DNA of 64,000 nucleotides from the human T2T-CHM13v2.0 reference genome, Homo sapiens, in the NCBI RefSeq assembly GCF_009914755.1, contig NC_060927.1, one strand, 5' to 3'. Shown here in pieces: positions 24,641-25,841 of the stretch; position 1 is the first letter of the stretch; each line of letters opens with the position of its first letter. Below the pieces are notes generated by a model. It saw only the letters and a list, made by a program, of their open reading frames with translations. It was not told the origin of the DNA and did not search any database. The translations under genes and the position numbers were made by a program.

Positions 24641-24803
24641 CAGTCTTTGAGTACTATGTTCAATTTACTAAAAATATCTAGAAAACTAAAGTATTCCCAA
24701 AGGCAAATCTTTGGTGTGACAGATGTAAAATAATATCCACAAGCTGAAGGGTCTGTCTTAGAAAAGCATTCTGCATCTGCTTCAACAAGAGTACTGGGTG
24801 TCA
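24641..24803 (+). repeat. Inverted repeat, left arm (163 bp)
   Basis: Reverse complement of 25679-25841, 18 mismatches, no gaps (hand alignment). Confidence 0.97.
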
Positions 24804-24929
24804 TTTATAATTCATGCAAGTATATTGAAGCTTTCTGCTGTCGTCCAAGAAAGATGGTTTTCAAAGCTACAGAGTGCAATAATCCAATATTCCTTGTAGA
24901 GAGTCCCATATATCTCATATAGATTTTAC

Positions 24930-25093
24930 ACTGGAGATCATTTCCATGCTGATGACCTCAAGAATACAATGTGATATTTTCAGAAAACACAGATTTATGC
25001 TATGTGCTATTTCTGTGGGCTTGGGGGACAACCATTAGATCATTAAGTTGAAGGTATATTTCTAGTCAGACTTAATCCACATTGCAGTGGTCA
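24930..25093 (-). pseudogene. Candidate cadherin-repeat exon remnant inside the inverted-repeat loop
   Basis: Strong acceptor (poly-T)gtag|; DHCNVD*V*LEIYLQLND / NGCPP / NST*HKSVFSENIT / ILEVI across frameshifts, resembling DxNDxPxF...YxxxVxEN. Confidence 0.4.
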
Positions 25094-25247
25094 CTACAAA
25101 AAAAAATGGGTATCTAAATGCCTCAAGAACTTCAGTTTTTGTGTTCAACATATTTTGCAGTGGAAAATGAGTTTGATGATCAGAGTGTACTCCTATAGAA
25201 GGCAAAATGACCATGAGAATAATTAGAATAATTCAATCATTTCTTCT

Positions 25248-25551
25248 TCTTCTTCTTCTTTTTTTTTTTTAAACAGAGTCTTGCTCTGTCGCCCAGGCTG
25301 GAGTGCAGTGGAGTGATCTCGGCTCACTGCAAGCTCCGCCTCCCGGGTTCACGCCATTCTCCTGCCTCAGTCTCCCGAGTAGCTGGGACTACAGGCACTC
25401 GCCACCACGCCCGGCTAATTTTTTTGTATTTTTAGTAGAGTCAGGGTTTCATCGTGTTAGCCAGGATGGTCTTGATCTCCTGACCTCGTGATCCGCCCAC
25501 CTCGGCCTCCCAAAGTGCTAGGAATACAGGCGTGAGCCACTGTGCCTGGCC
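25248..25551 (-). mobile_element. AluY
   Basis: AluY diagnostics (gcaagctccgcc, ttcacgccattc, tgttagccaggatgg); 15-bp TSD tcaatcatttcttct at 25233-25247 and 25552-25566. Confidence 0.96.
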
Positions 25552-25678
25552 TCAATCATTTCTTCTAAAGTACAGGACTTTGAATATGAGATCAGCTTAT
25601 ATTCAAAATCAATTTAATAATTAAATCAAATTTAAATATTAAATTATTTGCAGGCCAAAAGAAGTGAGCTTCCTAAAG

Positions 25679-25841
25679 TGACACCCAATACTCTTGTTAA
25701 AGCTGCTACAGAATGCTTTTCTAAGAAAGACCCTTCAGCTTATGGGTGTTATTTTACATCTGTCACACAAAAGATTTCTCTTTGGAAACAATTTAGTATT
25801 CTAAATATTTTTAGTTAATTGAACATAGTACTCAAAGACTG
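25679..25841 (-). repeat. Inverted repeat, right arm (163 bp)
   Basis: See left arm. Confidence 0.97.

What the first reader, a model, noticed from the sequence alone, without database searches (positions are those of the whole stretch)
24641..25841. Gap-free 163-bp inverted repeat of unrecognised sequence enclosing an exon remnant
Seen: 24641-24803 is the reverse complement of 25679-25841 with 18 mismatches and no indels (89% identity). The spacer is 875 bp, about 555 bp before the AluY inserted. The arms match no repeat I recognise, and I see no TSD. Of the 10 transition mismatches, 7 would be G-U wobbles in a minus-strand RNA and 3 in a plus-strand RNA, a weak bias toward the strand of the putative gene. 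The loop holds a strong acceptor (25093) and the cadherin-like exon remnant. Inference: a long pre-mRNA stem that could loop out or circularise the exon, act as an ADAR/Dicer substrate, or mediate a micro-inversion. Alternatively it is an old inverted duplication kept similar by arm-to-arm conversion.
Basis: partly seen in the sequence, partly recalled or inferred. Interest (0 to 1): 0.75.

Follow-up and report, generated by a model that had tools for sequence, protein, structure and literature searches.

The report
Old local inverted-duplication scar
A single-copy 163-base stretch sits twice, head to head, 875 bases apart in a human lncRNA intron; it is likely an ordinary, neutrally decaying scar of an ancient DNA-copying slip, with no sign in the sequence of a selected RNA stem or of a cadherin exon.

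Summary
The repeat is real and exactly as described: 163 bp, 18 mismatches, no gaps, 875-bp spacer holding an Alu with a 15-bp TSD. It is single-copy in the genome, has sharp edges and no TSD, so it is not a pair of common repeats or recognisable transposon ends. The features that made it look functional are at chance level. The G-U bias is 7:3 (p 0.34) and points away from the annotated + strand. No gaps has P about 0.1-0.3. Mismatches are evenly spread. The + strand duplex is weaker than 97% of neutral simulations. The 'cadherin exon' has no Pfam or PDB support and no consensus donor, and its acceptor strength occurs every 1.7 kb. The left arm abuts a 25-nt A tract with partial microhomology, and that tract plus its flanks may be a second, 40-bp inverted copy of sequence 75 bp upstream. 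Best reading: a replication/repair template-switch insertion, roughly 30-60 My old (assumed rates), drifting neutrally. If transcribed it would pair and could be edited as a bystander. No inversion is listed here in one T2T catalogue. Orthologues and RNA data could not be examined.

The parts
24641..24803 (+). Left arm; likely the derived (inserted) copy
   Evidence: polarity inferred from the outer junction
25679..25841 (-). Right arm, reverse complement of the left arm (89% identical); likely the template
   Evidence: continuous with single-copy flanks
24616..24640 (+). 25-nt A-rich tract abutting the left arm; its last 9 nt match the reverse complement of 25842-25850 at 6 of 9 positions (possible microhomology or eroded arm end)
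   Evidence: tracts of 23 or more A in 25 nt occur 10 times in 264 kb
24497..24536 (+). T tract with flanks; possible template of a second, about 40-bp inverted copy at 24611-24650 (33 of 40 columns)
   Evidence: suggestive only: 5 unrelated places in 264 kb (both strands) score as well
24804..25678 (.). Spacer: single-copy DNA plus an Alu; orientation relative to the ancestor unknown
25233..25566 (-). Young Alu on the minus strand with a perfect 15-bp TSD (25233-25247, 25552-25566)
   Evidence: nearest local Alu differs at 4.4% of non-CpG sites
25079..25094 (-).
26089..26428 (+). Annotated exon of one SUCLG2-DT transcript, 247 nt after the right arm; likely a terminal exon (AATAAA near its end)
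   Evidence: hub annotation table

Best explanation
This single-copy 163-bp inverted duplication is likely the scar of one ancient template-switch (replication or repair) event and likely evolves neutrally. Shown: two gap-free, 89%-identical arms, sharp ends, no other copy, no TSD, an A tract at the outer end of the left arm, and mismatches that do not favour pairing. Inferred mechanism: the nascent strand stalled or broke near the poly(dA:dT) tracts at 24509-24640. It possibly first folded back to copy 24497-24536 in reverse, giving 24611-24650. It then jumped by about 10 nt of microhomology to the opposite strand at about 25841, copied backwards to 25679 and returned to the forward template at 24804 (type 1-4-3-2 of the four-point model). 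The arms have since diverged independently (K2P 0.12; 30-60 My at assumed rates of 1-2e-9 per site per year, 18-95 My over the interval). The Alu likely inserted later. When SUCLG2-DT is transcribed the arms would pair and could be edited as a by-product.
For: Single copy with a working positive control. Sharp edges with no homology beyond them and no TSD. Uniform mismatches and neutral or worse-than-neutral duplex energies. Zero indels expected. A tract at the junction, a feature enriched at template-switch sites (PMC7954356, passages). Same geometry as a named outcome of the four-point model: types 1-4-3-2/3-2-1-4 make up 31% of high-confidence human-chimp events (PMC5453318, passages). Possible second inverted piece: 5' flank 8 of 10, P 0.005 against random sequence and best of the 89 other T tracts.
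Against: No orthologous sequence was available, so age, polarity and spacer orientation are inferred from one genome. The published four-point events are short (PMC7954356 required a template within 100 nt); this one is 163 bp over about 0.9 kb. The second inverted piece is mostly homopolymer. Its 3' flank did not pass the 10-nt test (4 of 10, P 0.92; both flanks together P 0.07), 5 unrelated places in 264 kb score as well, and it was found after the fact. The outer 25 nt of the arms are identical (P 0.04 for that position), a faint hint of local conversion.
Confidence: 0.62

Rival explanations
1. Scar of a fixed micro-inversion: a staggered break or a 1-3-4-2 template switch inverted the 0.56-kb spacer and duplicated 163 bp at both ends. 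Also neutral.
For: Inverted duplications of non-repetitive DNA (46 bp to 1.9 kb, median 321 bp) mark 17 of 29 Drosophila inversions (PMC1885836, passages). Inverted repeat plus inverted spacer is 23% of four-point events. The present-day geometry is the same.
Against: Nothing in the spacer or flanks reports orientation: no repeat remnant crosses a junction and base skews are weak. Neither supported nor excluded.
Confidence: 0.15
2. Selected pre-mRNA stem in the SUCLG2-DT intron (or an unannotated antisense RNA) that is edited, loops out an exon or tunes use of the exon at 26089.
For: The arms pair in silico across the loop (duplex -209 kcal/mol on plus). The right arm ends 247 nt before an annotated acceptor. 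Non-repetitive edited dsRNAs have a median length of 144 bp (dsRNAscan preprint, passages).
Against: G-U skew p 0.34 and on the non-annotated strand. Plus-strand duplex worse than 97% of neutral simulations. 8 of 18 mismatches are transversions. No Rfam family for the arms. No exon support in the loop. In the same preprint only 4,597 of about half a million non-repetitive predicted dsRNAs are edited.
Confidence: 0.08
3. Much older duplication kept at 89% by arm-to-arm conversion or recurrent inversion toggling, possibly still polymorphic.
For: Perfect outer 25 nt (P 0.04); short spacer.
Against: No decayed homology beyond the arms. Mismatches not clustered. Longest perfect run 25 nt. None of the 11 chr3 rows of the T2T inversion table lies here (PMC10150506 Table S1).
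Confidence: 0.07
4. Decayed non-autonomous DNA transposon with long TIRs (Mutator/foldback-like).
For: Long terminal inverted arms around unrelated DNA; the ends start CAG like many TIRs (recalled).
Against: No TSD. No further copy of arm or spacer although old repeats at 75-84% identity are found. The terminal 25-mer with up to 3 mismatches gives 1 outside hit vs 1 for the reversed control, and that hit does not extend.
Confidence: 0.04
5. Twin-primed L1-mediated retrocopy whose inverted and sense parts overlap by 163 bp, with the A tract as the 5' target site.
For: The left arm abuts TT|AAAA, an L1 endonuclease-type site. Junction duplications occur in 33% of twin-priming events (bioRxiv 2021.12.20.472354, passages).
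Against: No source locus elsewhere. No A tract of 11 in 12 nt on plus between 25842 and 30669 to serve as a tail.
Confidence: 0.04

Closest known systems
Four-point template-switch mutations, type 1-4-3-2 / 1-3-4-2 (Loytynoja and Goldman 2017, PMC5453318; Walker et al. 2021, PMC7954356)
   Same: A nearby segment copied in reverse complement creates an inverted repeat of unique DNA, no TSD, poly(dA:dT) beside the switch point
   Different: Longer (163 bp), template about 0.9 kb away before the Alu, likely much older than the ape events catalogued; ancestral state not seen here
Inversion-breakpoint inverted duplications (staggered-break model, Ranz et al. 2007, PMC1885836)
   Same: Non-repetitive inverted duplication in the reported size range flanking a segment
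   Different: Inversion of the spacer not shown; the segment is under 1 kb
Non-repetitive intronic dsRNAs (dsRNAscan, bioRxiv 2025.01.24.634786)
   Same: Predicted long intramolecular duplex from non-repeat DNA in an intron
   Different: Editing, expression and conservation untested; below that paper's long, highly paired class (over 300 bp and over 96% paired)
NAHR-type polymorphic inversions flanked by inverted repeats (PMC10150506; bioRxiv 2021.12.20.472354)
   Same: Inverted repeats bracket a segment
   Different: Arms short and 11% diverged; locus absent from the T2T inversion table searched

Membership tests
Template-switch inverted duplication | Segment is a reverse-complement copy of nearby DNA | tested here: met
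Template-switch inverted duplication | No dispersed copies, no TSD | tested here: met
Template-switch inverted duplication | Junction microhomology or poly(dA:dT) at a switch point | tested here: inconclusive
   A tract abuts the left arm; microhomology 6 of 9 and 8 of 10, partly low complexity
Template-switch inverted duplication | Ancestral single-copy state in an outgroup | not testable with these tools
   no other vertebrate genome held
TIR DNA transposon (MITE/Mutator-like) | Target-site duplication | tested here: not met
   no TA at both ends either
TIR DNA transposon (MITE/Mutator-like) | Dispersed family members | tested here: not met
   control
Selected RNA duplex | Mismatches biased to keep pairing on the transcribed strand | tested here: not met
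Selected RNA duplex | Cross-species covariation; editing or duplex reads | not testable with these tools
   no orthologues or RNA data
Cadherin pseudo-exon | Similarity to cadherin repeats in a frame after the acceptor | tested here: not met
   Pfam, 16 frames; PDB, 3 frames: no cadherin at E up to 10
Polymorphic NAHR inversion | Inverted allele in population assemblies | tested here: inconclusive
   absent from 11 chr3 rows of PMC10150506 Table S1; no hit in PMC6467913 supplements with recalled coordinate prefixes; larger pangenomes not seen

The most novel reading that the evidence does not exclude
A replication accident created a non-Alu, primate-specific 163-bp RNA duplex just upstream of an alternative SUCLG2-DT exon. 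It was then co-opted: the duplex forms in nascent RNA, is ADAR-edited and sets the choice between the short and long isoform of this cancer-associated lncRNA.
Probability: 0.06. Interest if true: 0.6.

Novelty: new member of a known kind. Interest (0 to 1): 0.2.

Why it matters
As a neutral scar it is a tidy example of a mid-sized (about 160 bp, about 1 kb reach) template-switch event. That size lies between the short events catalogued in apes and large structural variants, and there may be a two-step junction. It also offers a single-copy, uniquely mappable non-Alu duplex for asking whether ADAR edits any long intronic stem. It does not open a new class or answer an open question unless RNA data show use.

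Tried and rejected
Cadherin remnant: no Pfam cadherin in 12 long frames or 16 short frames; none in PDB for the 3 minus frames after the acceptor. Long stop-rich frames are an insensitive query: one search also missed the L1 remnant near 20000-22700. ALKBH2 exon likeness of one frame (E 0.29): it beat all 5250 local tiles (score 62 vs max 48), but it had been picked from 177,635 sequences. In-register DNA identity is 45% vs 44% expected from the amino-acid match alone, no other ALKBH2 exon matches, and the genome search with that frame did not return ALKBH2; rejected as chance. Open frame through the arms: only self matches and E of 0.04 or worse. Cryptic plus-strand exon over the right arm: neither its acceptor nor its donor reached the simple cut-offs (consensus recalled). 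Third copy within 100 kb on either side: none by blastn, nhmmer or covariance model. Homology beyond the arms: none. Rfam: only Alu-derived matches below gathering score. DNA hairpin of 24480-24660: z -0.98. Literature: no paper with SUCLG2 + inversion + inverted repeat. SUCLG2-DT and SUCLG2-AS1 listings show nothing on this element; PMC10474317 has 0 occurrences of inverted, hairpin, intron or isoform. A genome-wide background rate was not measured; only 264 kb around the locus was scanned.

Full report
Observation. The repeat is as described. 24641-24803 matches the reverse complement of 25679-25841 with 18 mismatches in 163 and no gaps; 10 are transitions, 7 would be G-U on the minus strand and 3 on the plus strand. 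Ungapped extension adds a few loosely matching bases (24632-24806 / 25676-25850, 87%). Sensitive local alignment finds no homology outside or inside the arms (outer 100, 300 and 1000 nt: 146 of 200, 48 of 200 and 4 of 50 shuffles score as well; inner: 74 of 200). The spacer is 875 bp and holds a minus-strand Alu with a perfect 15-bp TSD; without it the spacer is 556 bp. Among 31 inverted pairs of 40 bp or more with spacers up to 3 kb in 264 kb (window plus 20 flanking 10-kb stretches, each scanned alone), this is the only one of 100 bp or more with separated, single-copy arms.

Copy number. The arm finds only its two own copies in the whole genome (2 candidates). The left spacer, the right arm with flanks and the left flank are also unique. 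As a control, a 163-bp piece of an old repeat at 26500 returned 857 candidates, the best at 75-84% identity. The terminal 25-mer with up to 3 mismatches gave 1 outside hit against 1 for the reversed control, and that hit does not extend. blastn, nhmmer and a sequence-only model find no third copy in the 264 kb. No TSD of 6-20 nt fits any boundary choice near the outer ends. A transposon or a pair of common repeats is therefore unlikely; Dfam itself could not be queried.

Tests for a selected RNA stem. The arms pair when folded. The 7:3 G-U split has p 0.34 and favours the strand opposite to the annotated SUCLG2-DT transcript. Against 400 simulations that place 10 transitions and 8 transversions at random, the plus-strand duplex (-208.7 kcal/mol) is weaker than 97% and the minus-strand duplex (-227.5) is typical, with 38% of simulations as strong or stronger. 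Mismatch spacing is uniform (longest run P 0.65, variance P 0.61); the only hint the other way is that the perfect 25-nt run lies at the outer end (P 0.04). The lack of indels is unremarkable: local Alu alignments show 86 gap events per 1308 non-CpG mismatches, which gives P about 0.3, and assumed ratios give 0.11-0.28. Rfam has nothing for the arms.

The exon. The minus-strand acceptor (G at 25094) has 13 pyrimidines in 15, matched or beaten by 37 of 2033 minus-strand YAG sites in the window. No donor with 7 of 9 consensus letters follows it in the loop (consensus recalled). None of the three frames matches a cadherin in Pfam or PDB. A weak ALKBH2 likeness (E 0.29) failed at DNA level (45% vs 44% expected).

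Junctions. The left arm starts right after a 25-nt A tract; tracts that pure occur 10 times in 264 kb. The tract's last 9 nt match the continuation of the right arm at 6 positions. The tract with its flanks (24611-24650, including the first 10 nt of the arm) also matches the reverse complement of 24497-24536 in 33 of 40 columns. The 5' flank match (8 of 10) has P 0.005 against random sequence and is the best of 89 other T tracts. The 3' flank test was not significant (4 of 10, P 0.92; combined P 0.07), and 5 unrelated places in 264 kb score as well. Closeness makes it suggestive (about 0.002-0.03 by my arithmetic), but it was found after the fact and is largely homopolymer. If real, the left side is a two-piece templated insertion joined by about 10 nt of microhomology, and the left arm is the derived copy.

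Mechanism. Shown: a unique, sharply bounded, TSD-less inverted copy with neutral-looking divergence and poly(dA:dT) at one junction. Inferred: template switching. In the four-point model, order 1-4-3-2 (or its mirror) gives an inverted repeat, 31% of high-confidence human-chimp events, and 1-3-4-2 gives one with an inverted spacer, 23% (PMC5453318, passages). Poly(dA:dT) tracts are enriched around such events (PMC7954356, passages). The staggered-break model yields the same picture (PMC1885836, passages). One genome cannot tell these apart. Divergence is K2P 0.12 (p 0.067-0.169), or 30-60 My at assumed rates of 1-2e-9 (rates not from a call). The loop Alu differs from its nearest local relative at 4.4% of non-CpG sites, against a median of 12.8% over 40 local Alus, so it is likely younger than the arms.

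Consequences. The arms lie in an intron of SUCLG2-DT, ending 247 nt before an annotated exon (26089-26428), so a duplex could form and be edited without being selected. The dsRNAscan preprint reports about half a million non-repetitive predicted dsRNAs, 4,597 of them edited (the same text also says about 2 per megabase; passages). It does not name SUCLG2 in its main text, and its supplements were closed. None of the 11 chr3 rows of the T2T inversion table lies at this locus (PMC10150506, supplement 2). PMC6467913 supplements gave no hit for hg38/hg19 coordinate prefixes that I derived from recalled gene positions, which is a weak test. The supplement of PMC8755829 could not be read. Searches (listings only) and a word search of PMC10474317 found no description of this element. 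I also saw passages of bioRxiv 2021.12.20.472354; some searches were listings only.

Verdict. Real, unique and apparently undescribed, but most likely an ordinary neutral template-switch scar: new member of a known kind, interest 0.2. The co-opted RNA duplex reading keeps about 6%.

Noticed in passing
window 24497-24536 vs 24611-24650: T tract and A tract with matching flanks form a second, about 40-bp inverted pair 75 bp apart, overlapping the start of the left arm
   Followed up: yes
window 25576-25610: AT-rich imperfect palindrome (35 nt at 80%; a 61-nt self-inverted alignment, 0 of 200 shuffles) in the short right part of the spacer, just after the Alu TSD
   Followed up: no
window about 26490-26770 and 45205-45480: Old unmasked interspersed repeat (857 genome candidates) just after the SUCLG2-DT exon; a 70% identical inverted copy lies at 45.2-45.5 kb; not in the NCBI mask list given
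   Followed up: partly
window about 20000-22700, minus strand: Decayed L1 ORF2-like translation visible (family recalled, no Pfam hit)
   Followed up: no
L031:3388-3622: Single-copy AT-rich palindrome of about 124 bp (84% self-complementary) about 44 kb downstream of the window
   Followed up: no
L019:3066-3281 vs 5638-5851: Inverted Alu-like pair at 95% identity over 216 bp, 2.4 kb apart, upstream of the SUCLG2 start
   Followed up: no
window 24818-25003, minus strand: Translated frame resembles human ALKBH2 over 60 residues (18 identical, E 0.29); judged chance after DNA-level test
   Followed up: yes
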